Positions 6,391 through 62,614 of a DNA stretch of 64,000 nucleotides are shown here, one piece after another. Source of the DNA: an uncultured Clostridia bacterium. Its GTDB lineage: Bacteria; Bacillota; Clostridia; Christensenellales; DTU072. The stretch is taken from positions 5,783 to 69,782 of the forward strand of contig CALVUD010000003.1 in assembly GCA_944363505.1 (NCBI GenBank), given 5' to 3'. How positions within the stretch are numbered: position 1 is the stretch's first letter; each line of letters begins with the position of its first letter. The notes below the pieces were generated by a model. It did not search any database and was not told where the DNA came from. It worked only from the letters and a program-made list of their open reading frames with translations. The translations under genes were made by a program, and so were the position numbers.

Positions 6391-6695
6391 TTTTTCTCCT
6401 ATTGTCAAACTAAATTATACTTTCATTTAGAAAACAGGTTAGTTTATATTGTAAAATTCTTTTGAATAAATAATATTTAATCCTAATTTTATTACCCCTG
6501 AACTCTAAAAATTATTTTCATTATAGCAAATTTTTTTATGCTTATCAATAATATGTGGTAAATTCACAGTATGTATATATTCCTAACGCACAAGATTAAT
6601 TTGCCAATAACTCACTTATACTTTGTAAAATGATAACAGTGTCAATAAACTATGTCTTCATCCATACCGCATTTATTCGACTTTGTGTAAATACG

Positions 6696-6790
6696 CTCCA
6701 CCAAACCGAGGATAAGGGCGCAGATTGCGCCCTTTTTTCATGTCTCGGACTTCGGTCATTTACGTTTTATAAACTCCCTCGCCTTCACTT
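6696..6790. repeat. Island boundary repeat, copy A (partial and more diverged)
   Basis: Begins CTCCACCAAACCGAG and contains GGGCGC-N5-GCGCCC-T6. It aligns with 12810-~12890 and 19525-~19605 at about 6 substitutions per 60 nt. Confidence 0.8.
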
Positions 6791-12572: not shown

Positions 12573-12809
12573 GTTTATAGCTGACTACATTATAGCATAT
12601 AAAAGATATGTTTCAAGAATTTCTCCATTCATTAGAAAAATTAGTTTTCTTGTATACTTTTACAAACCCATTGACCATTTGTCCATAAAAATGAGGTAAA
12701 TCTTTTTTAAAAAATTTCCAAATAGCAAATTTATTTGCAAAAATAAAAGAGTCCGTGGCAAAATAAAAATGCTTTTCTTCATGATATTATTCGATTTTCT
12801 ATAACAACA

Positions 12810-13004
12810 CTCCACCAAACCGAGAATAAGGGCGCGGATTGCGCCCTTTTTTCATGCCTCCGGCTTCGGTCATTTGCGTTTACCTCTCCTTCGCATTTTA
12901 ATCTCCGCACCCTGCAACCCTTCTGCTCGGGTTGGAGATAGCATTTTTATCCGCTTCCCCCACAAAAACCCCGGATCGAAAATCGGTTCGGGGTTTTCGT
13001 TTTA
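12810..13004. repeat. Island boundary repeat, copy B (full length)
   Basis: Colinear with 19525-19720 over about 195 bp with few substitutions. It starts with the same CTCCACCAAACCGAG and ends in a hairpin plus T-run when read on the minus strand. Confidence 0.9.
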
Positions 13005-13157
13005 TTCGATTATTATAAATTTGATTTGAATAAATGAAGCTAAAGGGCGCGGCTTGCCCCAAAAGTTAAGCAAAGCCCCTTTTCTATTTCAACCACACAC
13101 CACGGTGATAAATTCAAAATAGTATATTTGCACTTTTAATTATTAACAGAAAATTAC

Positions 13158-13227: not shown

Positions 13228-14295
13228 ATGTTAAGTTATATTTCGGCAAAAGAAGCGGCGGAGAAATGGAATATTTCACAAAGGCGAGTTGCCATACTTT
13301 GTTCAGAGGAACGTATTAAAGGCGCTATGATGGTCGGCAATATGTGGATTATTCCTTCAAACGCTGAAAAGCCTGTGGATAAGCGTACTGTTCGTTATGA
13401 AAAAACTCATAAAGTTGAACTAAAACCTTTTGTAAAGTGGGTTGGCGGAAAAGGTCAGTTGGTTGATGAAATTGAAAAGATGTTTCCTTTCGACGGCGAA
13501 AATGCCTTGACAAAATACGCTGAACCTATGGTCGGCGGCGGTGCATTGTTTTTCAACGTACTTTCGAAATATACTTTCGAAGAACTTTATATTAGCGATA
13601 TTAACTCAGAGTTGATCAACGCTTACACCGCTATCAAGCAAAATGTTGAAGCATTGATTGCGCGGCTTAATGAGATGCAGATGACGTTTTTACCTCTCGA
13701 CGATAACGGCAGAAAATATTACTATTATAATATCCGTGATAAATTCAATTCATTGGAATTGAGCGAACGCTCTTCAATAGAAAAAGCAGCTTATTTCATT
13801 TTTTTGAATAAGACTTGTTTTAACGGATTATATCGCGTTAACCGGAAGGGGCAATTCAATGTTCCCATGGGTTCTTATAAAAATCCTACTATTTGCGATA
13901 AGGAAAATCTCCGCAACATTCATATTGCGCTACAAAACGTTACAATTGTCTGCGGCGACTATACTCTGTCAAAGTCATTCATTGACAATAATACTTTTGT
14001 CTATTTAGATCCGCCTTACCGTCCTATTTCAGAAACTTCAATGTTTACATCATATAATGTCGACGCATTCGACGACAACGAGCAGATACGGCTTGCAAAA
14101 TTTATCGATGAGTTAAACGCGGCAGGAGCGAAAATCGTTTTGAGTAATTCCGATCCGAAAAATATCAATCCGGAAGACAATTTCTTTGATGATTTGTATA
14201 AATCATACAGGATCCACCGAGTTTCGGCAACACGAATGATAAACAGCAATGCGGAAAAACGCGGCAAGATAAACGAATTGTTAATTTGCAATTAA
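13228..14295 (+). CDS. Dam-family N6-adenine DNA methyltransferase (DpnM-like) with an N-terminal HTH domain
   Basis: VKWVGGKGQL and DPPY motifs (MethyltransfD12 type). The first ~50 aa (ISAKEAAEKWNISQRRVAILCSEERIKGA) form an HTH. Confidence 0.8.
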   Translation: MLSYISAKEAAEKWNISQRRVAILCSEERIKGAMMVGNMWIIPSNAEKPVDKRTVRYEKTHKVELKPFVKWVGGKGQLVDEIEKMFPFDGENALTKYAEPMVGGGALFFNVLSKYTFEELYISDINSELINAYTAIKQNVEALIARLNEMQMTFLPLDDNGRKYYYYNIRDKFNSLELSERSSIEKAAYFIFLNKTCFNGLYRVNRKGQFNVPMGSYKNPTICDKENLRNIHIALQNVTIVCGDYTLSKSFIDNNTFVYLDPPYRPISETSMFTSYNVDAFDDNEQIRLAKFIDELNAAGAKIVLSNSDPKNINPEDNFFDDLYKSYRIHRVSATRMINSNAEKRGKINELLICN

Positions 14296-14306
14296 AGAGG
14301 AAACAT

Positions 14307-15146
14307 ATGAATATTCTTGAATTAACCAAAGAAGAAACAAATAAATATATAGACGAACTATACTCGTGCTTTCCAACTGGGCGAGAGTTTGAAATTTTTT
14401 TAAACTCATTTTTAAGTGCTTTAGGCTTTGAAGAAGTAGTTACAACTCAATATGTGAGTGATAAAGGAATTGATTTAACTTGTGTAAAAACAGGCCTTGA
14501 TGTAAACGGAACTGATACTATAAACTATTATGTTCAAGCAAAAAGATATTCTCGCAATAATAAAGTTCAATCTAAAGAGATCAGAGATTTAAAAGGTACC
14601 ACCAAACGGGATAAGAACGGCAAGGTTTTAAACAGTAATTATATAAATGTATTTATCACAACTTCAACATTTACTAATTCTGCTTTAGCAGAAGCGAGCG
14701 ACAATCCCAACATGCCAGTTATCACTATAGATGGTACTCAACTCATTCAATATTGCATTGAAAAAGGCATTGGTTTTAATTATAAACCCATTTTTTCCAA
14801 AACAGATATTATTGCATTGATACAAAGCGCGCCAAACAACGATATTAGTATTGAACCAAATTCATCATACTTGGTCGAAAGAGAAATAACTAAAAATGAT
14901 ATAAGGGCAAGGATTCTGATTATCCCTCAAGTTATAAAAAACGAATTATCAAAAAATGAAGAAAAATTTAATGTTGTTTTTAATGGATTTGAAAAACAGC
15001 TTAATATCGATAAATCCCGGCGATATTTTGGCGGCATAACAGATTTTTATAAAAAATTTGGGTTGCTAACTAATGATGGGATATTTATAAACAAAAAAGC
15101 AAAATGGCGAATAGACGGAAACAAGATTATTGTTGATTTAGTGTAG
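14307..15146 (+). CDS. Mrr-like PD-(D/E)xK restriction endonuclease domain protein with an unassigned C-terminal domain
   Basis: FEIFLNSFLSALGFEEV...DKGIDLTCV...YYVQAKRY matches the Mrr_cat pattern (D...QxK). ATG at 14307 follows AAGAGG. Confidence 0.6.
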   Translation: MNILELTKEETNKYIDELYSCFPTGREFEIFLNSFLSALGFEEVVTTQYVSDKGIDLTCVKTGLDVNGTDTINYYVQAKRYSRNNKVQSKEIRDLKGTTKRDKNGKVLNSNYINVFITTSTFTNSALAEASDNPNMPVITIDGTQLIQYCIEKGIGFNYKPIFSKTDIIALIQSAPNNDISIEPNSSYLVEREITKNDIRARILIIPQVIKNELSKNEEKFNVVFNGFEKQLNIDKSRRYFGGITDFYKKFGLLTNDGIFINKKAKWRIDGNKIIVDLV

Positions 15147-15157: not shown

Positions 15158-16021
15158 ATGAAAAGAGATTTTAATGAATGGCTTAAAACTTTCAAATCGA
15201 GCATTTGCGATTATGGCTATTATGTCGATTTCGAAAAGGTTTACGGTAATGTAGAAAGCATAAAAGTTGAATTGAATATTCTTAATTCTCTTATAGGCTC
15301 TAAAAATATTGAGGATGATTTTAGAAAGCTAATCCAAGAATACCCGAAAATTTTAAAATGCATTCCTATGTTGCTTGCGGTCAGAGGGCGTGAAATTTAT
15401 GCTATTGACGGAGACGGAGAATACTTATTTAATTTTTACAAGCCAAATTACACTGCAAACGAATACATAATGTTCATGCATAAAACGGGCTTATTTTACT
15501 TAATTTCAAATCATATTATAAATAACCTCGTAGATTATGTAACGGGCGTAGAAGTCGGACTCGATAGTAACGGTCGTAAAAATCGCGGCGGTCATTTAAT
15601 GGAAAACCTTGTAGAGGATTATCTTATAAAAGCCGGATTAGTTAAAGGCGAAACTTATTTTAAGGAAATGAAACTGTCCGCGATCGAAAGAAAATGGAAT
15701 ATCGATTTGTCGGGTATTTCAAATCAAGGCAAAGCAGAAAAGAGATTTGATTTTGTTGTTAAGAAAGGCAAAACAATATATGCAATAGAAACAAATTTTT
15801 ATACGGGTGGAGGCTCAAAACTTAACGAAACCGCGCGCAGTTATAAAACTATCGCTTTAGAAGCAAAAGAAATTGATGGTTTTGCCTTCGTGTGGTTTAC
15901 GGACGGAGCTGACGGTTGGAAGTCTGCTCGCCATAATCTTGAAGAAACGTTTGACGTTTTAGATAATATGTATTGTATTTCCGATATGGAAAACGGTATA
16001 GTAAAGGAACTTTTCAAATAA
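15158..16021 (+). CDS. DpnII/MboI-family type II restriction endonuclease (GATC class)
   Basis: The N-terminus FNEWLKTF...YYVDFEKVYGNVESIKVELNILNSLIGSKNIEDDF closely follows the R.DpnII N-terminal pattern as I remember it. Confidence 0.75.
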   Translation: MKRDFNEWLKTFKSSICDYGYYVDFEKVYGNVESIKVELNILNSLIGSKNIEDDFRKLIQEYPKILKCIPMLLAVRGREIYAIDGDGEYLFNFYKPNYTANEYIMFMHKTGLFYLISNHIINNLVDYVTGVEVGLDSNGRKNRGGHLMENLVEDYLIKAGLVKGETYFKEMKLSAIERKWNIDLSGISNQGKAEKRFDFVVKKGKTIYAIETNFYTGGGSKLNETARSYKTIALEAKEIDGFAFVWFTDGADGWKSARHNLEETFDVLDNMYCISDMENGIVKELFK

Positions 16022-16022
16022 T

Positions 16023-16766
16023 ATGGCAAAGAAAAATATACCGTTACAGCCCGAAAATTTCGAACTCGAAACAAATACCGTTTGGGCGTTCCCCGATCGC
16101 GGTAAATGGGCTACACACGACGCGAAATATCGCGGAAACTGGTCGCCGTATATTCCGAGAAACGTAATTCTGCGTTATTCGAAAGAGAACGACACTGTTT
16201 TGGATCAGTTCGTTGGTGGCGGCACTACCGCGGTTGAGGCAAAATTAACTAATAGGAATTTTATCGGTGTCGATATTAATCCGAACGCACTTGAAATAAC
16301 AAAAAGCAAATTGAATTTCGAGTGTGAATTTAATCCGACGATAAATATTATGCAAGGCGATGCGCGTAATCTTTCGACTATTGCCGATAATTCGATAGAC
16401 CTTATTTGCACGCATCCGCCTTATGCGGATATTATTCATTACAGCGAAAATATTGACGGCGATATGTCACTTATGTCGATGAAAGATTTTTTGTTTGAAA
16501 TCGGCAAAGTCGCGGGCGAATGTTATCGGGTATTGAAGAAAGATAAGTTTTGTGCTATTCTTATGGGAGACACACGGAAAAAAGGTATGGTTCAGCCGCT
16601 TGCTTTTGATACTATGCGTGTCTTTGAGCTCGCCGGTTTCAAAACGAAAGAAATAATAATCAAGGAACAGCACAATTGCAAAGCAACTGGATATTGGAAA
16701 ACAAACAGCATAAAGTTTAATTTCCTTTTGCTCGCCCACGAGTATTTGTTCGTGTTAAAAAAATAA
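16023..16766 (+). CDS. Amino (N6-A/N4-C) DNA methyltransferase with motif order FxGxG before PPY
   Basis: VLDQFVGGGTTAVEA is followed by CTHPPYADII. The gene starts 1 nt after the endonuclease stop. Confidence 0.7.
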   Translation: MAKKNIPLQPENFELETNTVWAFPDRGKWATHDAKYRGNWSPYIPRNVILRYSKENDTVLDQFVGGGTTAVEAKLTNRNFIGVDINPNALEITKSKLNFECEFNPTINIMQGDARNLSTIADNSIDLICTHPPYADIIHYSENIDGDMSLMSMKDFLFEIGKVAGECYRVLKKDKFCAILMGDTRKKGMVQPLAFDTMRVFELAGFKTKEIIIKEQHNCKATGYWKTNSIKFNFLLLAHEYLFVLKK

Positions 16767-16790
16767 CTTGAATTCTAGCCGAGGTAGGAT

Positions 16791-17690
16791 ATGGATGAGT
16801 TTATATATGATGACAATAAAATAAAACTATACAACGAGGATTGTTTAAAAATATTCCCCCTGATAGATAGTGAATCTATTGATTTAATAATAACATCACC
16901 GCCTTATTGCATGGGAAAAGAATATGAGAATACATCTGATGATATAAATTCCTTTCTTTCCCTGAATAAAAAAGTAATTTATGAGGCCCAAAGAGTTTTA
17001 AAAAAAGGGGGGAATCTTTGCTGGCAGATTGGTTTTCATGTAAAAGATTCTGTCATCGTTCCTCTGGATTGCTTAATTTATCAAATTGTTGAAGAAATAA
17101 ATAAAACGCTATCTGATGATTGTAAATTGTACTTGCACAATAGAATAGTATGGTCATTTGGTCATGGATTAAATGCTGAAAAAAGGCTAAGTGGTCGCTA
17201 TGAGACAATTATGTGGTACACAAAAGGTAAAGAGTATTTGTTTAATTTAGATGCTATTAGAGTACCGCAAAAATATCCAGGGAAAAAGTATTCAAAAGGG
17301 AAAAAAGTTGGACAATATAGTGGGAACCCTTTAGGGAAAAACCCATCTGATGTATGGGATATTCCAAATGTAAAAGCTAATCATATAGAGAAAACAGCAC
17401 ATCCGTGTCAATTCCCGATTGCAATTCCGCAAAGATTAATTAAGGCCCTATCTAGACAGGGCGACATAATCATGGATCCTTTTTTAGGAAGTGGAACAAC
17501 AGCCGTTGCGTGTATAATGGAGAAAAGAAATTTCATAGGGTGTGAATTAAAAAAAGATTATATTTCTATCGCAAAGCAACGCATTACAGATGCTATACAA
17601 GGAAAGGTTAAGTGTCGTCCAGATGTACCAGTCATAGAGCCCGACAAAAATCAAAAAGTTGCACAAAAGCCGGAGGAATTCAAATGGTAA
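16791..17690 (+). CDS. Beta-class amino DNA methyltransferase (N6-A or N4-C)
   Basis: ITSPPYCMGKEY lies near the N-terminus and DPFLGSGTTAVAC near the C-terminus. Confidence 0.8.
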   Translation: MDEFIYDDNKIKLYNEDCLKIFPLIDSESIDLIITSPPYCMGKEYENTSDDINSFLSLNKKVIYEAQRVLKKGGNLCWQIGFHVKDSVIVPLDCLIYQIVEEINKTLSDDCKLYLHNRIVWSFGHGLNAEKRLSGRYETIMWYTKGKEYLFNLDAIRVPQKYPGKKYSKGKKVGQYSGNPLGKNPSDVWDIPNVKANHIEKTAHPCQFPIAIPQRLIKALSRQGDIIMDPFLGSGTTAVACIMEKRNFIGCELKKDYISIAKQRITDAIQGKVKCRPDVPVIEPDKNQKVAQKPEEFKW

Positions 17691-19495
17691 AGAAACTAAT
17701 GAAGAATAAAAAAAAGAGATTATCAAAAGAGCAAATCGTTGAGAATAAAAACCGTGCCAGTTTTAAAAAACAAATAAAAGATATTTTTATACTTTCGGGC
17801 TTTAATCCTTTGAATGTTCAAGGTTTTCAGTTTGAACTGGGGAATCGCCCCAATGAACTAGATCACTGCTTTATTTACGAGAACATTATAATAATTTGCG
17901 AAGATACGATTAAGTTTCTGAAGAAAAAAGATTTAGCAGCGACTAACGGAGAATCCTTTAATCGAAATCACAAATTAGAAAAAAATGAATCTGCTCATAT
18001 AATTCTAACCAATAAAGAACGTTTTATTGGTATCTTGAAACAGAAATTTCCTGATGTTGAACAAATAAAAATTTATAATCCAAAGGAGTTCAGGATTTTT
18101 TATTTGTACTTTGAATACGGGAAGCAACATATTAGTTCTGAAGATGAAAATAGGTACAGTTATTTAAAATTTATAGATTATCCGACGCTTAATTACTTGT
18201 CGATTATGTCAAAAAGTTTAAAGGCGTCATTTAAGTATGAGATTTTTAGATTTCTAAATCTTTCCAGAACGGACATCGGAAAACCAGACCCGTTTGGGAA
18301 TAATATTAAGCCGATCATTTCTTCGATTATATATCCAGATTCTGTTACGGGATTTAATAATGGTATCAGGATGGTTTCCTTTATGATGAGACCTTCCGAT
18401 TTGATTGAGAATAGTTTTGTGCTTCGTAAGGATGGATGGGAACAAAATGTTGATTTATATCAAAGATTAATAACCCCCAAAAGGATAAAATCTATTAGAG
18501 ATTTTGTTGTAAATAACAAAACTACTTTTTTGAATAATATTATTGTAACATTACCGCCCAATGTAGAATTTTACAAGAAAGAAAACGGCAAGAGATTGCC
18601 CGTTAATATTGATGACATTACAAATTATAGTAACAATGTTGAGATATGCATTCCTGTAGATTTTAACTCAATGGCTATTATTGATGGTCAACATAGAGTT
18701 TATGCGTATTATCAAGATAACGAGAATAATATTTCGGAACAAGTTATTGCTAAGTTAAGAAATGAGTTAAATTTGCTTGTGACTGGAATTATCTATCCAA
18801 ACAACGATAAATACGATGACCCTTTGGAAAGAAGAAAATTTGAGAGTAATTTATTTGTCTCAATTAATAAAAACGCAAAACCTGTTGATGCTGATACATT
18901 GATTCAAGTGCAAGCAATTATGAATCCCACTTCTGGTGAAGCAATATCAAGAAAAGTTATAGAACGTTTAAATAAGGAAGAACCCTTTACAAATATGTTT
19001 CAGTTATCTAAAGTTGAAACAGCACCAATTAAAATCGCATCAATTATTCAATACGCACTATCGAGTCTATTAGTAGCAAAAAATAACGATAACTCGCTAT
19101 ATCGTTACTGGTTGGTAAAAAACAAGTTGAATGATGATTATGTATTGAGAAGCAGTGAAGACATTAAAGACTATATAAATTATTGCGTAAAATATCTAAA
19201 AGAATACTTTAAAGCGATAAAGAGTAAATTTAACAGTTTCTGGAATAAAGATTCGAAGCTATTAATGGTTATTTCATTGAATGCTTTTATAATTGCATTT
19301 CGAGAGACATTAAAAATGTGTAATGGGCCTCAAAAGTATAATTTTTATTCTAGTGTATTTAAAGATTGGGATTTTAGTTTTGAGAACTCTAAAGATAAAA
19401 ACAAACAATTCCCATATGCAGGTGCGCAGTATAGTAAGTTTGCAAAAAATGAAATAATCCCATTGTTTGTTCGAAATTATAATACGACTAAATAG
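17684..19495 (+). CDS. DGQHR-domain (DndB/DpdB-like, ParB fold) protein with unassigned N- and C-terminal regions
   Basis: IIDGQHRVYAYY is encoded at 18683-18697 and QRLITPKRIKSIRDFV lies upstream of it. ATG at 17684 follows GGAGGA (17672-17677) and overlaps the methylase stop by 7 nt. Confidence 0.7.
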   Translation: MVKKLMKNKKKRLSKEQIVENKNRASFKKQIKDIFILSGFNPLNVQGFQFELGNRPNELDHCFIYENIIIICEDTIKFLKKKDLAATNGESFNRNHKLEKNESAHIILTNKERFIGILKQKFPDVEQIKIYNPKEFRIFYLYFEYGKQHISSEDENRYSYLKFIDYPTLNYLSIMSKSLKASFKYEIFRFLNLSRTDIGKPDPFGNNIKPIISSIIYPDSVTGFNNGIRMVSFMMRPSDLIENSFVLRKDGWEQNVDLYQRLITPKRIKSIRDFVVNNKTTFLNNIIVTLPPNVEFYKKENGKRLPVNIDDITNYSNNVEICIPVDFNSMAIIDGQHRVYAYYQDNENNISEQVIAKLRNELNLLVTGIIYPNNDKYDDPLERRKFESNLFVSINKNAKPVDADTLIQVQAIMNPTSGEAISRKVIERLNKEEPFTNMFQLSKVETAPIKIASIIQYALSSLLVAKNNDNSLYRYWLVKNKLNDDYVLRSSEDIKDYINYCVKYLKEYFKAIKSKFNSFWNKDSKLLMVISLNAFIIAFRETLKMCNGPQKYNFYSSVFKDWDFSFENSKDKNKQFPYAGAQYSKFAKNEIIPLFVRNYNTTK

Positions 19496-19524
19496 TAATT
19501 AAAATTCGTTTTACATTGTCACTT

Positions 19525-19720
19525 CTCCACCAAACCGAGAATACGGGCGCGGATTGCGCCCTTTTTTCATGCCTCCGGCTTCGGTCATTTGCGTTTACCT
19601 CTCCTTCGCATTTTAATCTCCGCACCCTGCAACCCTTCTGCTCGGGTCGGAGATAGCATTTTTATCCGCTACCCCCACAAAAACCCAGGATCGAAAAAAT
19701 CGGTGGGTGTTTTTCTTTTG
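19525..19720. repeat. Island boundary repeat, copy C, directly abutting the backbone
   Basis: See copy B. It ends 2-3 nt before the stop codon (19723-19725) of the GC-rich hydrolase gene. Confidence 0.9.
19545..19567 (+). terminator. Rho-independent terminator-like hairpin after the R-M/DGQHR operon
   Basis: GGGCGC-GGATT-GCGCCC followed by TTTTTT, 50 nt after the stop at 19495. The same hairpin occurs in copies A and B. Confidence 0.55.
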
Positions 19721-19722
19721 TA

Positions 19723-20808
19723 TTATTTAAGTGCTTTTACGTAATTCACGGTTTGGGAGCGTGTAACGGCGGATCGGACAGATCTGTCGCGCTTTTTCTG
19801 AGCGAACATCCAATCGCACCATTTTTCTTTCATGAGAAAACGCGAGGCGAGAAAGTGTCCGTATTTTTCGGTGCGGGTATATCGGAAATCCGCATTAAGT
19901 TCGGTAAGCTTTCGGGCGGCGAGATCGTCGTGCGCTATAGATACTATGCCGTCGTTCGCGGCGTGAGCCATCCATATCGGAACCTCTTTAAAGGGCTCGC
20001 AGTCGCAATTTCCGCTTTCCAAAAATTCAAACGTGGTTCCCATAAGAGGAACGGCACAGGCAAATTTTTCGGGCGCCGAACTAAGCGCGCTCCATACGCA
20101 GCAGCCTCCGAGAGATACGCCAAGAACATATATCCGACTTCGGTCGGCGTGCGTTTCTTCCGCAACGCGGTCAGCAAGTGCGACGACGGAATTTATATAG
20201 CGCGTCATTTCCGTTTTAGTTTCGTCGAAACTCCTGCCTTCGTTTATCGAGCGGTACGGCTGAGGAACGAGGATATTCGCGTTTTTACGAGCGAGGACCG
20301 GGAGAATGAGCGAGGTATCGAACAACGTCTTTATGTTGTCGTTTCCCGTGGCGCCCGCGCTCGGAAAAATTATTGCTAACGGCATATTCGCTTTGCCTGA
20401 CCTATTCAGGCGGTACGGATATGCTGTAAGATTTTCTTTATCGATATACAGACGGGATCCGAACCCGAACAGCTTCGCTCCGTATCCGATACTTTCGGTG
20501 TGTTCGGTCTCGGCTAACTTCCTTTCCCGCCACGCGCATTGTTTGTCGATAGCCGAAGTACGACGGCATTGCGCGCGAAAAAGCGAACGGACCGATCTTT
20601 TTGTTTTCCCTATGATCACCGGCTCGCCTGAAATATTATAGCGGTAGAGCGTTCCGTCGGATGCGATTATGACATTATTTACTAAAGCGTCGTCGCCTTC
20701 GGGCAAAGTTTTTCGGGAAACGAGAGTTAATCTCGTTTTTTCGTCTTTTTTAACGAATTTTTCGTCATCCCGGATACTTTCGTTTGAGGTCAGAACCCTA
20801 TAGAACAT
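19723..20808 (-). CDS. Alpha/beta hydrolase (prolyl oligopeptidase / esterase-like)
   Basis: 361-aa ORF with the nucleophile elbow GVSLGG. Confidence 0.6.
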   Translation of the reverse strand: MFYRVLTSNESIRDDEKFVKKDEKTRLTLVSRKTLPEGDDALVNNVIIASDGTLYRYNISGEPVIIGKTKRSVRSLFRAQCRRTSAIDKQCAWRERKLAETEHTESIGYGAKLFGFGSRLYIDKENLTAYPYRLNRSGKANMPLAIIFPSAGATGNDNIKTLFDTSLILPVLARKNANILVPQPYRSINEGRSFDETKTEMTRYINSVVALADRVAEETHADRSRIYVLGVSLGGCCVWSALSSAPEKFACAVPLMGTTFEFLESGNCDCEPFKEVPIWMAHAANDGIVSIAHDDLAARKLTELNADFRYTRTEKYGHFLASRFLMKEKWCDWMFAQKKRDRSVRSAVTRSQTVNYVKALK

Positions 20809-25391: not shown

Positions 25392-25685
25392 TCAATTTTC
25401 GCGAACTTTAAATGCGGGCATTTCTTTGCCGCGGAATTCGGCGTCGAGAATACCCAGCTGCATTTTAATTATACGCCGCATTTCGATAGCGGGTGCAAGA
25501 CAGTATTTTTCAAAAAGCTCTCTGTCCGCGTCTGCGGCGCTGTTCCAGTGCGGGAAATACAGCTTGACAAACGCCGTAGCGATACGTTTTACCGCAGCGG
25601 TGTCCCTTGTATCCGAGCCCTCGGGAACACACAATAATTCGTTCACTACGCCGCCTGCGGTCATATCGTTGCGCAATTCGTGCAT
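25392..25685 (-). CDS. 97-codon ORF that continues the FtsK-like gene in another frame (frameshifted tail or overlapping small gene)
   Basis: Protein-like sequence starts at MHELRNDMTAGGVVNELL (ATG 25685) and overlaps the upstream stop (25661-25663) by 25 nt. The longer track ORF's N-terminus is Arg/Gln-rich noise. Confidence 0.45.
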   Translation of the reverse strand: MHELRNDMTAGGVVNELLCVPEGSDTRDTAAVKRIATAFVKLYFPHWNSAADADRELFEKYCLAPAIEMRRIIKMQLGILDAEFRGKEMPAFKVREN

Positions 25686-28600
25686 ACTATGTTGACTGCG
25701 TTGTTGTACCGCGCCGTCTGCATTATGCGCAGGATGTCGTCGTTGCGGACGCCTTTCAGAATGATCTTGTTGGAACATGCCGCCATCTCGCGCTCTATCG
25801 GAGAAACGCTGGACGGCGTATCCACGCTGAATACGATGTGAATACCGGTATCGGCACCTTGCGAGAACACTTCCTTGAACATCGCGGCGAACGTCATCTT
25901 GTCGCCGCTCGAGCCGCCGAGACCCATTGTCAGTCCGCCGAAAAGCGAACTCGGCGCGGGCGCTGTCGCGGGAGCATCGGAAATGTCGTATTGGCGCATA
26001 TTATCCTTTAAAAGATCGATAAACGCCTGTAATTTATGTATAAATACGAATATCGGCGGGTGTTCGTCCTGGATCCGGTCGGAACGCTCGCGTTGAGTAC
26101 GCAGCAGCTTTACGAACAGATTCGCCAGGTCCCTCTTGCTGTTGACTTCGGTACAGTATTTTGTGAAAGCTTCGGGCAAAACATAATAAAGGTCGTTGGG
26201 GTTATCCTTGGAGACTATCTCGCCGTTGACGTAATAAACCGATCCCTTAAATTCGGTCATATCCTTGTTGGTAATGTTTTCCATTATCACGGAAAGCATG
26301 GAGTAACCCATTATATCTCTGATCTCCTCGATGGAAGAACCCGCCATCCAAAGGTTGGATTGCGAACCCCTGAGTCCGATATTTACGCCGAAAGGTTTGC
26401 CCGTGATATAGTTTTGTCCGATCTCGAGAAAATACGTTCCGCTGGACTTTGACTTGAGAGATTTCGCAGAAACGGCCTCCGTGTATTTCGTTTGTCCGAC
26501 ATTGGGTTGGGGTACGTTGTCGTTGCCGACGACGAACAAAGGCTCTCTTTCTTTCCAGCCGTCGGTTACCTCCGCCCATTTTTTGTTTATCGCCTCGACA
26601 AACTTCAGTCGTCTTTGCGAATTCTCGGCATAAGCCACGCGGAATTCCACACAGTCGTCTTTTCCCCTGTTGGACATTTCTTTTATCAACGCCAGACCTT
26701 TTTCGATCTTATTCAAAGAACTGACCCTTTCCGGCTTTATATCGAGATCGGACGCGTCGTCGAGATTGTTCAGTTTCAAACAGATCCTGGTGCCTATCTG
26801 ACCTATGACTTCCCTGATGCCCGCGACCTTCGGCACGTTCTGAGATACCCAAAGGAAACTTATGCCGAACGCTCTGCCTTTCTTGAAAAGCTCGGACATT
26901 ATCTTTATCGCCTCCTGTCCCAGGCTTTCGTTCCGCTCGAACAGTTCCTGGACCTCGTCTATTATGACGAGCAACCTGGGCAGTTTGATCTTTGCTTTTT
27001 CGTTATATCTGATGATATCCTCGGCAAAATTTCTGCGGAAAAGATTTTCGCGTCTGTGCAGCTCTTTCAGGATATTGCTAAGGATAGCCAGTCCGTCGTC
27101 GGGGTCCGAAGTCAATCCCGTCAATTTTATGTGCGGCACCTGCTTTGCAAGCTCGCCGCCGCCTTCGTAAAACTTGAATTCGACGCCGCCTTTAAAGTCG
27201 ACCAAGTATATGTTAAGTTCGTCCGGACTGTATTTGTAACACGCCGAAAGCACTATCGCGTGGAGCAGATTGGATTTACCTGAACCCGTCCCGCCGATCG
27301 CGACCGCGTGTGCGCTGGCGCCGGACGTTGACAATTCGAAACTCAGGAACTCGTTACCGCGCATACCTATCGGCAGAGCGATGGATTCGTCCGCAGGTTT
27401 TATGCCCTTTGCGGACTTTTGCTGTTTGTCGATATACTCCAAGACGCGCGCGAATTGAATATTCTTTTGTTTGACTTTTTCGGAATTGTCCGCAAGTATC
27501 TTCAAGTACGACTCCATTTTCGTTGCGTTTATATTGTCGGCGGTCTTGAAGGTGTTGTCTACGTTCATTTCGGCGACGATCTTGTTTCCCGAGGCGTTGA
27601 ATACTATGCTGTGCCTTTTCGCCACAGCGATAAAGTTGTCGTAGGCTTCTCCTATTCCCCTGCCGACCGAAGCTTTGTTGCTGAATAATACGGTGAATAT
27701 CCCGGCCCTGTTCCCCTGATCCATTATTTTTGCCAAACGGTTGCAGGTGTCGGGATTAAATCCTTTCGGGAAATTGAGTATCGCCATTACCGTTATGCTT
27801 TCGGGGTTCGTTACGGATAGTTCGTTGTACTCGAAAATATTGTTTGCGGCGTTATAACGGATCTTATTGTCATATATGGTGTGCATCGTTTTTTCCATAT
27901 CTTTGACGACGCCGTCCAGATCCCTTTCGTCACGGACGATGCCGCCCCCGACCAGACCGCCGAGATCCTTTAGCTTTGCGTATCTCGAAAAATCGCCCCT
28001 GTCGTCGACGTCGACAAGCAGAAAACTTATTCTTTTTGCCGGGAAACTCATCAAATAAGAAATAAGTATTTCGTGTATAAAATTAAAAATAATGGAGGAG
28101 TATTCGCCGGGTTCGTTGATATTGACTAAAATGTTGCCGCAGTTTTTGAGATCCAGCACCAGCGGGCACGACATCTTGCCGTCCTTGACGAACTCGGAAA
28201 GCACCGGGCTCTTTCCGAAATATTTTTTATGCTCGGGCTTTGTGTCGACGGTAACATCCATATCTCCGAGCGTTATATATTCTTTGAAATCGAAAGAGCC
28301 GTTATCCACGTCGACCGTGCCCTTTTGTCCGGATTCATATATCTGTCGGAAATTGGCTTTGTTGATTATATCGTCCTCTTGCCCGAGGATCTCGCGCTCT
28401 TTGCTTTCGTAATAAGCGTTTAGTCTGCCTTTTTCTTTTTCTATCAACGCCTTGCGACGCTCGTCCACGAATTTGGCGTATTCGGCTTCGCTATAGTATC
28501 TTCTGACCGCATTCTCCATCGAAGACAGTCTTTGGATCAGCCCTAACGCCATGGCGATGGCTTGTTTTGTTTTTTCGTGTTGCGGATAACCGTTCGCGTC

Positions 28601-29134
28601 TTCGGAAATCAGAAGATCGTAATTATAGACCGAAAATTCTTGTTTTTCCCCGACCTCTTCGATGGTGTTCGCACCTCTGCAAAACACTACTGTCTCGGGC
28701 TTTCCTTTGATACCTTCGTCCTTTGTCTTAATTTCCAAAGGAGGGTTATATTCGTCATAGTCGAAATCGTTAAGTTCAGAAACCACTTTGTTCAGCGCTT
28801 CTACACCGTCGATAATGTTCAGTCTGTACCCCTCTATGTCGTCGGAAAGAACTTCTCCGACGTATTTCGGTTTGATCTTTTTGTATTCCTCGTTGCCGAT
28901 TTCGTCGGAGCGTAGCTGAACGATAAGCTTTTCGAGACGGTCTTTTATGTCCGTAACTTCGCTCTTTACGTAACGGTTAAGTTTCGCGCGGTAATCGGCT
29001 TTCAACTTATCCGAAATTTTTTCTGCACCCTTTGTTTTATCGGAAAGGCTCGAATCGACGTTTTTTATGACCGAATCCAGTTTAACGAATTTCTTTTGGC
29101 ACTGATCGATGATGCTAATAACCTTGTTAATCAT
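25661..29134 (-). CDS. Soluble multi-domain FtsK/SpoIIIE-family ATPase (coiled-coil N-terminus, degenerate-active-degenerate P-loop domains)
   Basis: Walker A GGTGSGKS (27275-27295), Walker B LLVIIDEVQE, no hydrophobic TM segments seen. Start MINKVISII at 29134 follows AGGGG. Confidence 0.7.
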   Translation of the reverse strand: MINKVISIIDQCQKKFVKLDSVIKNVDSSLSDKTKGAEKISDKLKADYRAKLNRYVKSEVTDIKDRLEKLIVQLRSDEIGNEEYKKIKPKYVGEVLSDDIEGYRLNIIDGVEALNKVVSELNDFDYDEYNPPLEIKTKDEGIKGKPETVVFCRGANTIEEVGEKQEFSVYNYDLLISEDANGYPQHEKTKQAIAMALGLIQRLSSMENAVRRYYSEAEYAKFVDERRKALIEKEKGRLNAYYESKEREILGQEDDIINKANFRQIYESGQKGTVDVDNGSFDFKEYITLGDMDVTVDTKPEHKKYFGKSPVLSEFVKDGKMSCPLVLDLKNCGNILVNINEPGEYSSIIFNFIHEILISYLMSFPAKRISFLLVDVDDRGDFSRYAKLKDLGGLVGGGIVRDERDLDGVVKDMEKTMHTIYDNKIRYNAANNIFEYNELSVTNPESITVMAILNFPKGFNPDTCNRLAKIMDQGNRAGIFTVLFSNKASVGRGIGEAYDNFIAVAKRHSIVFNASGNKIVAEMNVDNTFKTADNINATKMESYLKILADNSEKVKQKNIQFARVLEYIDKQQKSAKGIKPADESIALPIGMRGNEFLSFELSTSGASAHAVAIGGTGSGKSNLLHAIVLSACYKYSPDELNIYLVDFKGGVEFKFYEGGGELAKQVPHIKLTGLTSDPDDGLAILSNILKELHRRENLFRRNFAEDIIRYNEKAKIKLPRLLVIIDEVQELFERNESLGQEAIKIMSELFKKGRAFGISFLWVSQNVPKVAGIREVIGQIGTRICLKLNNLDDASDLDIKPERVSSLNKIEKGLALIKEMSNRGKDDCVEFRVAYAENSQRRLKFVEAINKKWAEVTDGWKEREPLFVVGNDNVPQPNVGQTKYTEAVSAKSLKSKSSGTYFLEIGQNYITGKPFGVNIGLRGSQSNLWMAGSSIEEIRDIMGYSMLSVIMENITNKDMTEFKGSVYYVNGEIVSKDNPNDLYYVLPEAFTKYCTEVNSKRDLANLFVKLLRTQRERSDRIQDEHPPIFVFIHKLQAFIDLLKDNMRQYDISDAPATAPAPSSLFGGLTMGLGGSSGDKMTFAAMFKEVFSQGADTGIHIVFSVDTPSSVSPIEREMAACSNKIILKGVRNDDILRIMQTARYNNAVNIVCTNCATI

Positions 29135-29358
29135 TTTACCGCCCCTGCTTTTATTCACATATACGGGGCAAAAATCAATCTTCCCCGCAAAAAGTGCGTT
29201 ATAATTATATATTCGCCGTGTCAAACGTTTTTTCTATTCTTTTATATGATTTCTGCTATACGCTTCCCGCAACATTGATATTTTACTTCGGTCCGTGTTA
29301 TGATTTAAAAAACATCCCTTTTCTTTGAGGAGGCATCCGAAGGAGAGTTTTTTATAAT

Positions 29359-44341: not shown

Positions 44342-44733
44342 AAAGCGATTATAACACATACCGAAAAAGTTTTCAACAATAGCTAAATCTAAATAAATAT
44401 ATTTAAAAATAAAGTTATTTAAGCGAAAAGGCAAGCCGAACAAAAGCAGGCGATTTTAAATTCTAAATTCGGTAATGGAATAAGGGTAATATGCCGGCAT
44501 AAAAAAAAGACAGTCATCCGATAATTAGTTGACGAAATTAAAATAAATCGGGAGGCGAAGAATTTTCGGAAAGAAAATCAATTAACTAATATAGAATAAA
44601 CCGAAAATGAATTAAATTAAAAATTAAAAAACATAAAAACAAAACCGTCGGAGGAAATCATTTGAAAAAGGAAATCATATAAAACGCTTTTAAAAGAGAA
44701 TAATATTCTCTTTTAAATGACAAAACAAATCAT

Positions 44734-44777
44734 ATATCAACATTTTAAAGCGTACTTATCAACAATTATATTGATAA
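44734..44777. promoter_or_regulatory. DnaA-box-like cluster upstream of dnaA (putative oriC/dnaA promoter region)
   Basis: ATATCAACA at 44734-44742, TTATCAACA at 44756-44764, and an inverted TTGATAA at 44771-44777, inside a very AT-rich kb. Confidence 0.45.
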
Positions 44778-45213
44778 CTCGCCGTTTAAACGATCCGTTT
44801 AAGTTATCAGAAAGCTAATTAAAAAGTACATATTAAAAAATAATTATAATGCAGAGCATAATTGTACAATATTTATTAGATTAAAAAATGCGTCTTTAGT
44901 CTTTATGATTATCCCATCCCCTCTTTGAAATAAAATACACTCGGCTTAAAAACGTTTATAAAATAATCGGAAAAAATATAGATACATTATTTAGTATAGA
45001 GTTATATTAACTGAATAAATCAACACAATCGTATCGGCAAAATATTATATAATACAAAATCATTTGTTGAGTTAAAATCGAATTAGAAAAAAATAAAATT
45101 GTATATAAATAACAATATATTAAAAAATTAAAGCGGAATAATGATATAATACTCTAAAATATTTAAAAAACGGACCGAAATGACGAACCATTATAGATTT
45201 ATAAACGAACGAT

Positions 45214-45229
45214 TGTTTCACGTTAAACA
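45214..45229. other. parS-like site 1: TGTTTCACGTTAAACA
   Basis: One mismatch to the Firmicutes parS consensus TGTTNCACGTGAAACA. Confidence 0.55.
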
Positions 45230-46246
45230 AAACGTATTATATTCAATATAATCCATATCCCGCTTCCATTAACAGAATATCGTTATATGGCGGATTGCTT
45301 TAACGAAAATCATTCAGTTAATTATGCGGTTTTGAAAATTAAATAAATGAATAAAACTGAAGCGAGGTAGTTTATAATCGTAAAAGTTCAATCAATTTTA
45401 TACAAGAGAGAACGATATTTTATCCGAAAAGTACCGGACTACTAATTTTTAACGAATGTAAGATATTATTTTCATGACTTATATCATTATTTGCATAAAA
45501 CCGTTTTTAGATTTACTTTTTTCTCGGCAATTATAAAATCGAATATAATTCAACTATGAAACAGCTTATCTTTGAGCTTGTTTACTTCTTTTCCGTTAAG
45601 CCGTCAGAATCGAGCAGAAATAGCGTTGCATATACAAAATAAACTTTAAATTGAGGTTTCGATAAATATTTATTTGTGATTTTATTAAAGATTTAAAGGT
45701 ATAATCGGGATCCTTTCTATTGTTTCCGACGACGATCATGCTTCGGTCGGTATATAATTACATTTAATTAATTTATCGTATTTTATAGAATTTCCGAGCA
45801 TGGATTCGATTAATGCTGATTATATGTTGATTGAAGTAATCGTCGACGTTTTGTTTTTGAAATGTTATCCGGTAATTGTTAAACGAGCAGTACAAGAATA
45901 AAATTCAGAATATAAATATCGTTTTATCATGTTTAGCGCCCGAATAAAAATCCAACACCCATTATCTGAGCTTTGTTTTTAAGAAGGCAGACGTCTTTTA
46001 AACGGCAGAAACGCGTATGTTTTTTTCCGAACGCCGAAATATTTTATGCTTCTACCGACTAATTACAGTGGACTTAACGACACAAAGATATTATTTAATA
46101 AAACAAGAAGAACTGTCTTTTACCAAGAGTTGTGTATAACGATAAACCGTATTCATCACATTATATATTTTGCAAGACGAAAAATCAATGGTATAGGCAT
46201 AATAACATAAGAAAATTCCTGCTTTTTAAATCTCGTTTACGCAGAA

Positions 46247-46262
46247 TTGTTTAACGTGGAAC
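46247..46262. other. parS-like site 2: TGTTTAACGTGGAACA
   Basis: One mismatch to the palindromic parS consensus; identical to site 5. Confidence 0.55.
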
Positions 46263-47151
46263 AATCGGCTGTAGCCGTGATACGGAGTCGGATTTTCACA
46301 ATCTAATATAGAAAAACGTAGCGAAGTGTTTCAAAACGCCGCCTTGAATCACGCGCTTATTCGGTTTTATATATCAAGGCGAAATACATAGGAATCACCT
46401 CCACTTTCATATATGTTATATATGTTATACGCCGGTTATTTGATTCCGACGTAAATCTTTTTGAACCAACAACATTTCGGGTACTTTCGTAAAGAGCGAA
46501 GGGGAGCAAATCCGACATGCTCCTCACTTTAACTTTGATAGAACCCAAATTAGGCGTCGATTTTTTCCCGATTGCCGGTCAGCTTTCGTGCGTTTAAAGA
46601 TAAAAAATCGGGGAAAAATTAATATACTTTAAAGTATTGCGTATATTGTACATACGTGGTAAGGCTCCAAACGCTTCTACCGCTCCCCGCATATAAATTA
46701 AGATTGAAATTAATGATCGAAACGTGCTTTCAAACCCTATGGGTGTGCGGTATTTATACGACCGACCGCTGCCCGAGCTTTTAACAAATGCGCATACAAA
46801 ATTAATTGTAAAAACGATTTATATCAGAAGGTCGGGAATATAATATAGTTTTTTGAGAATCCAAGCACGATACACCTGCTTTAAGAATTAAATCGGGTAA
46901 TACGAATAATACCGTATGAGTTACGTTTTACCGCCACCTCGAACCGACGATACACAACCTTATTATTAGGACTTTATAGTCCGAACATAGGAAAGAATGC
47001 CATTGCGAGAATCCATGCATATACGTATTATATCTTTCTGGCTGATTCCGATTTGTTTCGGTCGGGATCGGTTTGCGGCTTGTCCTTCATAAAGTCTTAA
47101 ACCAAAGATAAAAATTCTATCGGCAGAATGTTACGACGCGCAACGGTAAAA

Positions 47152-47167
47152 TGTTTCACGTTGAACA
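47152..47167. other. parS-like site 3: TGTTTCACGTTGAACA
   Basis: One mismatch; identical to site 4 within a shared 20-mer. Confidence 0.55.
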
Positions 47168-47982: not shown

Positions 47983-47998
47983 TGTTTCACGTTGAACA
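47983..47998. other. parS-like site 4: TGTTTCACGTTGAACA
   Basis: One mismatch; identical to site 3. Confidence 0.55.
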
Positions 47999-48536: not shown

Positions 48537-48552
48537 TGTTTAACGTGGAACA
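48537..48552. other. parS-like site 5: TGTTTAACGTGGAACA
   Basis: One mismatch; identical to site 2. Confidence 0.55.
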
Positions 48553-49154: not shown

Positions 49155-49170
49155 TGTTCCATGTGAAACA
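49155..49170. other. parS-like site 6: TGTTCCATGTGAAACA
   Basis: One mismatch; identical to site 7. Confidence 0.55.
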
Positions 49171-49309
49171 ATGCAATAATTCGCAAATTTTTCAGCTTTC
49201 GATCGGGCGGATCTCCGCGGCGTGAAGTTTTAGTTTTACCCTGAATCTCGATATATTTAATTTATCGAATCCTGAAATAATTAATACGGAGCTGCGCCTC
49301 AAGCGGTAT

Positions 49310-49325
49310 TGTTCCATGTGAAACA
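49310..49325. other. parS-like site 7: TGTTCCATGTGAAACA
   Basis: One mismatch; identical to site 6. Confidence 0.55.
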
Positions 49326-62600: not shown

Positions 62601-62614
62601 TCTAACAGACGGAT

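What the first reader, a model, noticed from the sequence alone, without database searches (positions are those of the whole stretch)
16791..19495. Amino-methyltransferase translationally coupled to a large DGQHR (DndB/ParB-fold) protein: candidate non-canonical restriction or modification-sensing module
**Coupling.** The beta-class methylase (SPPY ... FLGSGTT) stops at 17688-17690. The next ORF starts at ATG 17684, behind GGAGGA (17672-17677). The 7-nt overlap argues for co-translation.

**Product.** The 603-aa protein carries the motif IIDGQHRV (18683-18697) and an upstream QRLITPKRIKSIRDFV element. Both are hallmarks of DndB/DpdB-type ParB-fold proteins. About 190 N-terminal and 200 C-terminal residues match nothing I recognise.

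**Context.** In the settings I know, DGQHR proteins travel with phosphorothioation (dndCDE) or 7-deazaguanine (dpd) genes. None is present here. The only partner is a simple amino-methylase, and the pair sits at the end of a defence island next to Gabija-like, Hhe-like and DpnII-like systems.

**Precedent.** A ParB-fold NTPase/nuclease guarded by a cognate methylase would resemble the DUF262 half of GmrSD turned into a methylation-protected system.
Basis: partly seen in the sequence, partly recalled or inferred. Interest (0 to 1): 0.75.

Follow-up and report, generated by a model that had tools for sequence, protein, structure and literature searches.

The report
Methylase paired with DGQHR nuclease-like protein
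A DNA methylase gene overlaps a gene for a large three-domain protein (nuclease-like, ParB-like nucleotide-binding, helical), and the same pair recurs across many bacteria, some archaea and a phage. It is most likely an uncharacterised kind of restriction-modification system.

Summary
**Observation.** It holds exactly. A 299-aa beta-class amino-methyltransferase (16791-17690) overlaps by 7 nt a 603-aa ORF (17684-19495) carrying QR, DGQHR and FxxxN motifs. The ORF scores 93.6 bits against TIGR03187 (cut-off 58.85).

**Linkage.**
- In 78 of 80 loci fetched through the DGQHR protein, an N6_N4 methylase lies immediately upstream on the same strand.
- Of the other two, one has it adjacent but divergent, and one is cut by a contig end.
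- Plasmid and prophage relatives at 25-29% identity keep the pairing.
- Three of three loci fetched through the methylase have the DGQHR gene downstream.
- No third gene is conserved, and there is no dnd or dpd.

**The 603-aa protein.**
- The N-terminal 200 aa fold with high confidence (pLDDT 94.5) into an alpha-beta-beta-beta-alpha-beta core.
- Invariant residues are D60, E73-x-T75 and H96.
- Weak structural matches are mostly PD-(D/E)xK nucleases. None is significant.
- This domain occurs only in this family.
- No known REase profile matches.

**Verdict.** Most likely this is a two-gene restriction-modification module with a nuclease coupled to a ParB-fold NTPase (confidence 0.55). Helper or regulator roles are not excluded. 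I rate it a new variant of a known kind, interest 0.6. No cleavage, toxicity or defence has been shown.

The parts
16781..16789 (+). Shine-Dalgarno-like GAGGTAGGA before the methylase start, inside the 24-nt gap after the DpnA-like methylase gene
   Evidence: Read from the sequence. No separate promoter-like site lies in the gap.
16791..17690 (+). Beta-class (motif IV before motif I) N6/N4 amino-methyltransferase, 299 aa
   Evidence: PF01555 matches at 1.3e-57. PADLOC MTase_II matches at 1.6e-70. The best solved relatives are M.RsrI and M.MboIIA.
16896..16907 (+). Motif IV, S-P-P-Y (aa 36-39, context IITSPPYC)
   Evidence: TSPPYC is conserved across the main group of partner methylases.
17481..17501 (+). 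Motif I, FLGSGTT (AdoMet binding)
17672..17677 (+). GGAGGA ribosome-binding site for the DGQHR gene, 6 nt before its ATG
17684..19495 (+). 603-aa three-domain DGQHR protein, the candidate restriction subunit. It overlaps the methylase stop by 7 nt.
   Evidence: The AF2 model has pLDDT 88.5 and pTM 0.83. More than 1100 homologues were found.
17726..18253 (+). N-terminal domain (aa ~15-190) with a PD-(D/E)xK-like alpha-beta-beta-beta-alpha-beta core
   Evidence: AF2 gives pLDDT 94.5. The best Foldseek matches are mostly PD-(D/E)xK nucleases, but all are weak, E >= 0.005. No Pfam family matches. The domain is found only at the N-terminus of this family.
17855..17863 (+). E58-L59-D60. D60 is invariant and sits just before strand 61-65; position 58 is always E or D.
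17900..17908 (+). E73-D74-T75 at the end of strand 68-73/74. E73 and T75 are invariant, giving an ExT variant of (D/E)xK.
17969..17983 (+). H96-K-L-E-K100 on the helix after the strands. H96 is invariant and K100 is conserved in at least 90% of sequences.
18356..18883 (+). ParB/Srx-fold DGQHR core (aa ~225-400)
   Evidence: TIGR03187 matches aa 232-541. A weak Foldseek match to the ParB-N domain 5k5d was found. PHROG ParB-like matches at E = 0.009.
18461..18466 (+). Invariant Q260-R261, the 'QR' motif of DGQHR domains
   Evidence: The motif definition is from PMC4619093.
18683..18697 (+). Invariant D334-G-Q-H-R338, equivalent to the ParB box II / P-motif and the presumed NTP-phosphate site
   Evidence: The role is inferred from PMC12065111 and bioRxiv 10.1101/2025.10.10.680097.
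18854..18868 (+). F391-V-S-I-N395, the 'FxxxN' motif. F391 and N395 are invariant.
18884..19492 (+). C-terminal all-helical domain (aa 401-603), partly covered by the DGQHR model. No HEPN-type Rx4-6H motif is conserved.
   Evidence: The comparison with DndB-C is from PMC12065111.
19545..19567 (+). Terminator-like hairpin GGGCGCGGATTGCGCCC followed by T6, 50 nt after the stop. It lies inside the flanking repeat.
12789..13025 (+). Left copy of the ~200-240-nt direct repeat that brackets the 6.5-kb cassette (DpnII genes plus this pair)
19504..19740 (+). Right copy of the same repeat, 93% identical to the left copy. Similarity to the closest relative L001 ends at 19517.

Best explanation
The two genes form a self-contained restriction-modification-type module.

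**Methylase.** The beta-class amino-methylase marks a specific site on host DNA.

**The 603-aa protein is the restriction subunit.** It has three domains:
- an N-terminal PD-(D/E)xK-like nuclease domain, with D60, E73-x-T75 and H96/K100;
- a central ParB/Srx-fold DGQHR domain that binds, and probably hydrolyses, an NTP;
- a C-terminal helical DndB-C-like domain.

**Proposed mechanism.** By analogy with GmrSD, BrxU and SspE, the ParB-fold NTPase reads the modification state of DNA and licenses the nuclease. Because a cognate methylase is always present, the target would be DNA lacking that methylation.

**What is shown.** The gene pair, the domains and motifs, the conserved linkage, and the mobility of the pair.

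**What is inferred.** Nuclease activity, NTP dependence, protection by methylation, and anti-phage function.
For: **Linkage.**
- In 78 of 80 loci an N6_N4 methylase lies directly upstream on the same strand. One further locus has it adjacent but divergent, and one is cut by a contig end.
- Rhizobium and Phyllobacterium plasmid relatives (28-29% identity) and an Akkermansia prophage relative (25%, convergent, next to the integrase) also carry a methylase.
- Three of three methylase-first look-ups find a 574-651-aa DGQHR gene downstream, in unrelated neighbourhoods.
- Only these two gene families are conserved among 797 neighbouring ORFs.
- R and M identities co-vary: Pearson 0.84 in the main group, Mantel p = 0.001.

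**Partner switching.** The family pairs with several methylase subtypes, as R-M families do: TSPPYC at ~300 aa, SSPPYFD at ~420 aa, TDPPYN at ~280 aa, and a 477-aa type.

**N-terminal domain.**
- AF2 gives pLDDT 94.5 and a canonical strand/helix order.
- D60, N67, E73, T75 and H96 are invariant down to 26% identity.
- Nearly all of the top 24 PDB matches are PD-(D/E)xK-fold nucleases or uncharacterised proteins of that fold: XisH, Bax1, Can2, Cdn1, the R2 endonuclease, EndoMS and AF1548.

**ParB-fold domain.** The QR, DGQHR and FxxxN motifs are invariant.

**Precedent.** DUF262 ParB-fold domains act as NTP-dependent sensors that activate fused nucleases (PMC12065111; PMC12707154).

**Setting.** The pair lies in defence islands, plasmids and a prophage.
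Against: - No Foldseek match reaches E <= 0.001. TM-scores are 0.3-0.4.
- No sequence profile links the N-domain to any nuclease family.
- The canonical lysine is replaced by threonine (ExT).
- I could not inspect coordinates, so I could not check whether D60, E73, H96 and K100 cluster in space.
- The nearest named relatives of the central domain are not restriction nucleases. DndB is described as a regulator and DpdB as an ATPase that aids modification.
- Loci with a broken DGQHR gene and an intact methylase (L061 and L072, possibly L051 and L068) fit both an R-M reading and a dispensable helper.
- There are no experimental data.
Confidence: 0.55

Rival explanations
1. The DGQHR protein is a helper or regulator of modification and is not a nuclease. 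It would be an NTP-dependent partner that loads or targets the methylase on DNA, as DpdB does for DpdA. Alternatively it would repress or limit methylation, as DndB does for dnd. The N-domain would be an inactive DNA-binding derivative of the REase fold.
For: - The only named profile matches are DGQHR, DpdB and DndB.
- DpdB is a ParB-like ATPase that drives preQ0 insertion (PMC12839542).
- DndB is reported as an ATP-modulated repressor (PMC10853773; PMC4507180).
- ParB-fold fusions to N6_N4 methylases are common in phages (bioRxiv 10.1101/2025.10.10.680097).
- The ExT variant lacks the catalytic lysine.
- Loci with a broken DGQHR gene keep an intact methylase.
Against: - Scores are far below the DpdB and DndB cut-offs: 45 against 300 bits, and 24.6 against 29.1 bits.
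- 300-aa beta-class methylases such as M.RsrI and M.MboIIA act alone (established knowledge; relatives).
- Invariant acidic and histidine residues sit at the canonical catalytic positions of a fold used for nucleases.
- The family pairs with unrelated methylase subtypes and in all three gene orientations, which fits an R/M relationship better than a dedicated complex.
Confidence: 0.2
2. This is a modification-stimulated, SspE-like or abortive defence. The DGQHR protein would read the methyl mark on host DNA as a licence, or would detect foreign modified DNA. It would then nick DNA or deplete nucleotides. The methylase would be a required activator rather than a protector.
For: - SspE (DUF262-DUF1524) senses host phosphorothioate, and its NTPase controls nicking (PMC12065111; PMC12707154).
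- ParB/Srx proteins have been proposed as nucleotide-degrading effectors (PMC10853773).
Against: - Nothing in the data points to this reading in particular.
- The methylase-first order with an overlapping stop and start, and the decay of the large gene but never of the methylase, follow the classic pattern of protective methylation.
Confidence: 0.12
3. The adjacency is hitch-hiking of two independent genes, an orphan methylase and an unrelated DGQHR protein, on the same mobile DNA with no functional tie.
For: Both genes lie in a low-GC island between direct repeats.
Against: - The pairing holds in at least 85 independent loci across many bacterial phyla, two archaeal MAGs and a phage. Flanks differ, and no other gene is shared.
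- The pairing survives methylase subtype replacement.
Confidence: 0.03

Closest known systems
Type II restriction-modification systems (methylase first, endonuclease overlapping)
   Same: - It is a two-gene module with a solitary beta-class amino-methylase.
- Gene spacing is tight or overlapping, the pair moves horizontally as a unit, and methylase partners are switched.
- The pair occurs in defence islands, on plasmids and in a prophage.
   Different: - The candidate endonuclease matches no catalogued REase profile.
- It is about twice the usual size.
- It carries a ParB/Srx-fold NTP-binding domain that classical Type II enzymes lack, which suggests NTP dependence.
GmrSD / BrxU / SspE (DUF262 ParB-fold NTPase fused to a DUF1524 HNH nuclease; Type IV or PT-sensing)
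   Same: - A ParB-fold domain with QR, DGQ(H/Q)R and FxxxN motifs is followed by a helical domain and fused to a nuclease-type domain.
- The setting is a defence island.
   Different: - There is no DUF262 or DUF1524 match.
- The nuclease-like domain is N-terminal and PD-(D/E)xK-like, not a C-terminal HNH.
- A cognate methylase is always present, which implies attack on unmodified DNA rather than modified DNA.
DndB (dnd phosphorothioation) and DpdB (7-deazaguanine dpd)
   Same: They share DGQHR-domain homology across the ParB-like core and the helical C-domain.
   Different: - Scores fall below both family cut-offs.
- No dndCDE or dpdA is present in the window or in 80 loci.
- This family has an extra 200-aa N-terminal domain that occurs only here.
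- The partner is a methylase.
ParB-fold / N6_N4 methylase fusion proteins of phages and plasmids
   Same: A ParB/Srx-fold domain is associated with a beta-class N6_N4 methylase.
   Different: - Those are single polypeptides with a canonical ParBc domain and no REase-like domain, thought to act in anti-restriction.
- Here the two are separate genes, the domain is of the DGQHR type, and a nuclease-like domain is attached.

Membership tests
DGQHR domain proteins (TIGR03187) | Score above the curated cut-off of the domain model | tested here: met
   The score is 93.6 bits against a cut-off of 58.85, over aa 232-541.
DGQHR domain proteins (TIGR03187) | QR pair, DGQHR pentapeptide and FxxxN motif | tested here: met
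   Q260-R261, D334-R338 and F391/N395 are invariant in 93 close and 19 diverse sequences. The motif list is from PMC4619093.
DndB (PF14072; dnd-associated) | Score above the Pfam gathering threshold | tested here: not met
   The score is 24.6 bits against 29.1.
DndB (PF14072; dnd-associated) | Linkage to dndCDE phosphorothioation genes | tested here: not met
   None is present in the window. No third conserved gene appears in 80 loci.
DpdB (NF041060) | Equivalog score and linkage to dpdA/TGT | tested here: not met
   The score is 45.3 bits against a cut-off of 300. No dpd genes are present.
GmrSD / BrxU / SspE | DUF262 domain plus a DUF1524 HNH nuclease domain | tested here: not met
   Pfam shows neither family at E <= 1.
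GmrSD / BrxU / SspE | NTP-stimulated cleavage of modified DNA | not testable with these tools
   This needs biochemistry.
PD-(D/E)xK nuclease superfamily (N-terminal domain) | Alpha-beta-beta-beta-alpha-beta core with an acidic residue at the start of strand 2 and (D/E)xK on strand 3 | tested here: inconclusive
   The order of secondary-structure elements fits. D60 precedes strand 61-65, and E73-x-T75 ends strand 68-73/74, but T replaces K. I had no coordinates with which to check the geometry.
PD-(D/E)xK nuclease superfamily (N-terminal domain) | Significant sequence or structure match to a member | tested here: inconclusive
   The top matches are mostly PD-(D/E)xK proteins, but E = 0.005-0.3 and TM = 0.3-0.4. 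No Pfam or PDB sequence match was found.
Type II restriction-modification system | Complete DNA amino-methylase with motifs IV and I | tested here: met
Type II restriction-modification system | Conserved, reciprocal linkage of the methylase to the candidate endonuclease gene | tested here: met
Type II restriction-modification system | Site-specific cleavage blocked by the cognate methylation | not testable with these tools
   This needs cloning, a methylome and cleavage assays.
Catalogued REase families (Pfam RE_*, NCBIfam, PADLOC REase models) | Profile match of the 603-aa protein | tested here: not met
   Only DGQHR, DpdB and DndB match. REBASE itself could not be queried.

The most novel reading that the evidence does not exclude
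This would be a new class of restriction enzyme in which a ParB/Srx-fold NTP switch, rather than a helicase or translocase motor, couples recognition of an unmethylated site to cleavage by a divergent REase domain. It might do so by clamping or sliding on DNA, as CTP-bound ParB does. Alternatively, it could work like SspE, with host methylation licensing the nuclease.
Probability: 0.3. Interest if true: 0.8.

Novelty: new variant of a known kind. Interest (0 to 1): 0.6.

Why it matters
**If the large protein is a nuclease gated by a ParB-fold NTPase:**
- It adds a new restriction-subunit architecture to R-M biology.
- It extends the ParB-fold nucleotide switch to self/non-self discrimination by ordinary base methylation.
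- It explains a widespread set of genes labelled only 'DGQHR domain-containing protein'. The set comprises about 336 clusters at 50% identity and more than 1100 at 90%.

**Practical consequences.**
- The PADLOC-DB v2 models tested here do not flag the large protein as a restriction component. Methylases of this family could therefore be scored as orphans.
- The enzyme could have a useful specificity.
- Some of the clearest hosts are gut Bacillota and Mollicutes and oral Campylobacter, where such barriers shape gene flow and phage therapy.

Tried and rejected
- **E. coli genomes.** A megablast of the pair gave no match.
- **PDB by sequence.** The single sequence and the 93-sequence profile found nothing real.
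- **Pfam on the N-terminal domain.** Scanning 205 aa from 36 members gave only noise, such as PH_10.
- **PHROGs.** Only a marginal ParB-like hit appeared.
- **hhalign.** Comparing the N-domain profile with the neighbouring Mrr_cat protein gave probability 0.2%.
- **Foldseek.** No match reached E <= 0.001 with the full-length or N-domain models against PDB, or the N-domain model against BFVD. I use these only as an enrichment of nuclease folds.
- **DpnII dependence.** I rejected the idea that the pair depends on the DpnII genes. Only 2 of 80 loci share them.
- **HEPN.** I found no support for an active HEPN domain in the C-terminus, because no R...H motif is conserved.
- **tRNA, tmRNA or Rfam origin of the flanking repeat.** None was found.
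- **Target-site guess from palindrome avoidance.** GGCC is the most depleted palindrome, but taxonomy confounds the signal and I do not rely on it.
- **Literature.** Seven successful searches found no paper describing a methylase-paired DGQHR system.
Full report
**1. Observation**

- A 299-aa ORF (16791-17690) carries motif IV, IITSPPYC, ahead of motif I, FLGSGTT. This is the beta-class order.
- It matches PF01555 at E = 1.3e-57 and PADLOC Type II methylase models at 1.6e-70.
- Its TAA stop (17688-17690) overlaps the ATG (17684) of a 603-aa ORF. GGAGGA (17672-17677) precedes that ATG.
- Homologues start at the same MVKK, so the ATG is the real start.
- The 603-aa protein reaches 93.6 bits on TIGR03187 (DGQHR; cut-off 58.85) over aa 232-541.
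- It stays far below the DpdB equivalog cut-off (45 against 300 bits) and below the DndB gathering score (24.6 against 29.1 bits).

**2. Setting**

Bases 1 to ~19500 have 28-44% GC (about 30-39% across the pair and its cassette), against ~53% in the rest of the window. This low-GC stretch holds four groups of genes:
- a Gabija-like pair;
- a DUF4011/helicase/MTES_1575 protein;
- a plus-strand run of a Dam-type methylase, an Mrr_cat protein, R.DpnII and a DpnA-like methylase;
- the pair under study.

Only 24 nt separate the DpnA-like gene from the methylase. No distinct promoter-like site lies in that gap, so here the pair is probably co-transcribed from further upstream (inference). The window is an ENA metagenome scaffold. 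The closest relative is a Clostridia MAG, 93.8% identical in nucleotides over 16021-19517.

**3. Conserved linkage**

A scan of one genome per species found 356 relatives, of which 80 loci were fetched. The hosts include:
- Bacillota, Mollicutes, Campylobacter, Bacteroidota and Actinomycetota;
- Nitrospirota, Planctomycetota and Saccharibacteria;
- two archaeal MAGs.

Linkage in those loci and beyond:
- In 78 of 80 loci an N6_N4 methylase lies immediately upstream on the same strand, usually overlapping or within ~20 nt. In L056 it is adjacent but divergent. L076 is cut by the contig end.
- Clustering all 797 neighbouring ORFs gave only two conserved families, the DGQHR protein and the methylase.
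- The DpnII genes accompany the pair in only 2 of 80 loci.
- Relatives at 25-29% identity on Rhizobium and Phyllobacterium plasmids keep the pair.
- In Akkermansia phage Chantilly the pair is convergent and lies beside the integrase.
- Three methylase homologues chosen only by methylase similarity all have a 574-651-aa DGQHR gene downstream, in unrelated neighbourhoods.
- Pairwise identities of the two proteins co-vary: r = 0.84 within the main group, Mantel p = 0.001.

The family pairs with several methylase subtypes: TSPPYC at ~300 aa, SSPPYFD at ~420 aa, TDPPYN at ~280 aa, and a 477-aa type. Another DGQHR family lacks the N-terminal similarity (only aa 233-366 of the query align) and instead sits with a second DGQHR gene, a radical SAM protein and an ATP-binding protein. 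The methylase pairing is therefore specific to this family.

**4. The large protein**

AF2 with 93 homologues gives pLDDT 88.5 and pTM 0.83. It shows three parts.

(a) Residues ~15-190.
- Modelled alone, this part reaches pLDDT 94.5.
- The order of elements is helix 15-37, strands 41-43, 49-51, 56-58, 61-65 and 68-73, helices 76-87 and 96-109, strand 137-143, and so on.
- That is the alpha-beta-beta-beta-alpha-beta order of PD-(D/E)xK nucleases.
- D60, N67, E73, T75 and H96 are invariant down to 26% identity. K100 is conserved in at least 90% of sequences, and position 58 is always E or D.
- D60 sits just before a strand, and E73-x-T75 sits at the end of the next strand. These are the classic positions, with T in place of K.
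- Foldseek gives no match at E <= 0.001.
- Even so, nearly all of the top 24 PDB matches are PD-(D/E)xK-fold nucleases or uncharacterised proteins of that fold (XisH, Bax1, Can2, Cdn1, the R2 endonuclease, EndoMS, VC1899, AF1548). The named BFVD matches are mostly endonucleases or RecB-like exonucleases.
- No Pfam, PDB-sequence or PHROG profile sees this domain.
- A profile of the domain finds only 336 representatives among 1.84 billion proteins. Among the 150 listed, the match is always at the N-terminus, in ~560-620-aa proteins or shorter, probably partial, ones.

(b) Residues ~225-400. This is the ParB/Srx-type DGQHR core, with invariant QR (260-261), DGQHR (334-338) and FxxxN (391-395).

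(c) Residues 401-603. This part is helical and is partly covered by the DGQHR model. It corresponds to the DndB-C/GmrSD-M type of domain described in PMC12065111. No HEPN motif is conserved.

**5. Mechanism**

The most economical reading is a two-gene R-M-type module. The methylase protects, and the large protein restricts. Its ParB-fold NTPase would gate a divergent REase domain, as the DUF262 domain gates the HNH nuclease in GmrSD, BrxU and SspE. The polarity would be reversed, because a cognate methylase is present.

Several patterns fit R-M systems:
- the methylase-first order;
- the free change of gene orientation;
- the switching of methylase subtype;
- carriage by plasmids and a prophage;
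- at least two loci (L061, nonsense; L072, frameshift) where the large gene is broken while the methylase is intact.

No locus with a broken methylase gene was noticed where the contig allows a judgement, though methylase integrity was not tested directly. That asymmetry also fits a dispensable helper.

Nuclease activity, NTP dependence and protection by methylation are inferences. The main rival is a DpdB- or DndB-like helper or regulator of methylation. I give 0.55 to the R-M reading, 0.2 to the helper or regulator reading, 0.12 to a modification-stimulated or abortive variant, and 0.03 to hitch-hiking.

The methylated base is undetermined. SPPY is typical of N4-cytosine enzymes (established knowledge), but the best solved relatives are N6-adenine enzymes.

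**6. Comparison and novelty**

- The protein is a member of the DGQHR domain family. It is not DndB or DpdB, and it is not a DUF262/DUF1524 enzyme.
- Comparative-genomics papers have noted in general terms that ParB-like COG1479/DGQHR domains are fused to various nucleases and linked to R-M loci (PMC3632139).
- One epidemiology paper lists a DGQHR protein and a 'DpnIIA' methylase together among clade-specific genes without comment (PMC9248903).
- I found no description of this methylase-paired family in seven successful full-text searches. These turned up a 2025 review of restriction-modification, which does not mention it.
- PADLOC-DB v2 has no model for it.
- REBASE could not be queried, so prior cataloguing there is not excluded.

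I rate it a new variant of a known kind, with interest 0.6.

**7. Target-site lead (weak)**

- GGCC is the most depleted palindrome in the flanks of main-group loci, with O/E 0.56. It is the most depleted 4-mer palindrome in 20 of 58 loci. In loci with other methylase types O/E is 0.85.
- In the host part of this window GGCC occurs 17 times against 171 expected.
- Taxonomy and other GGCC systems confound this signal, so it is only a hypothesis for the methylome experiment.

Noticed in passing
window 6673-6767, 12789-13025, 19504-19740: Three copies of one repeat (95 to ~240 nt, 77-93% identical) separate the defence modules: Gabija | Hhe-like | DpnII plus this pair | host. Each copy contains the hairpin GGGCGC(G/A)GATTGCGCCC followed by T6. 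This looks like cassette accretion at a repeated site. No tRNA, tmRNA or Rfam family explains it.
   Followed up: partly
window 14286-15146: An Mrr_cat restriction-endonuclease-fold gene sits between the Dam-type methylase and R.DpnII inside the DpnII operon. The related loci L001 and L006 lack it.
   Followed up: partly
L001 2717-7812: The closest relative keeps the Dam-type and DpnA-like methylases plus the M/DGQHR pair but has no R.DpnII gene. About 550 nt lie in its place, which suggests loss of that endonuclease with both GATC-type methylases retained.
   Followed up: no
window 44443-49987: A 5.5-kb AT-rich stretch (GC 0.28-0.40) holds only three ORFs of at least 70 aa. The near-palindrome AAATGTTTCACGTTGAACAA occurs four times, 0.8-1.0 kb apart. 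There is no Rfam hit and no tandem array.
   Followed up: partly
window 19700-44400 and 50400-64000: Host DNA is strongly depleted in GGCC (17 observed, 171 expected) and CCGG (102 observed, 265 expected). GATC is not depleted, despite the resident DpnII system.
   Followed up: partly
L083 3869-5695 (Phyllobacterium zundukense plasmid NZ_CP017943.1): PLSDB's RGI track labels the DGQHR gene as the MFS efflux pump lmrP. This is almost certainly a false resistance-gene call.
   Followed up: no
L095 4278-9411 (Agrobacterium sp. S7/73 plasmid): A different DGQHR family occurs as two tandem DGQHR genes followed by a radical SAM protein and an ATP-binding protein, next to a PIN-like protein. This may be another uncharacterised DGQHR-based system.
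   Followed up: no
window 25392-29224 (minus strand): A 90-aa BrxL_ATPase-like fragment lies directly downstream of a ~1157-aa FtsK/SpoIIIE gene, overlapping its stop, in host-GC DNA (gene calls of L084).
   Followed up: no
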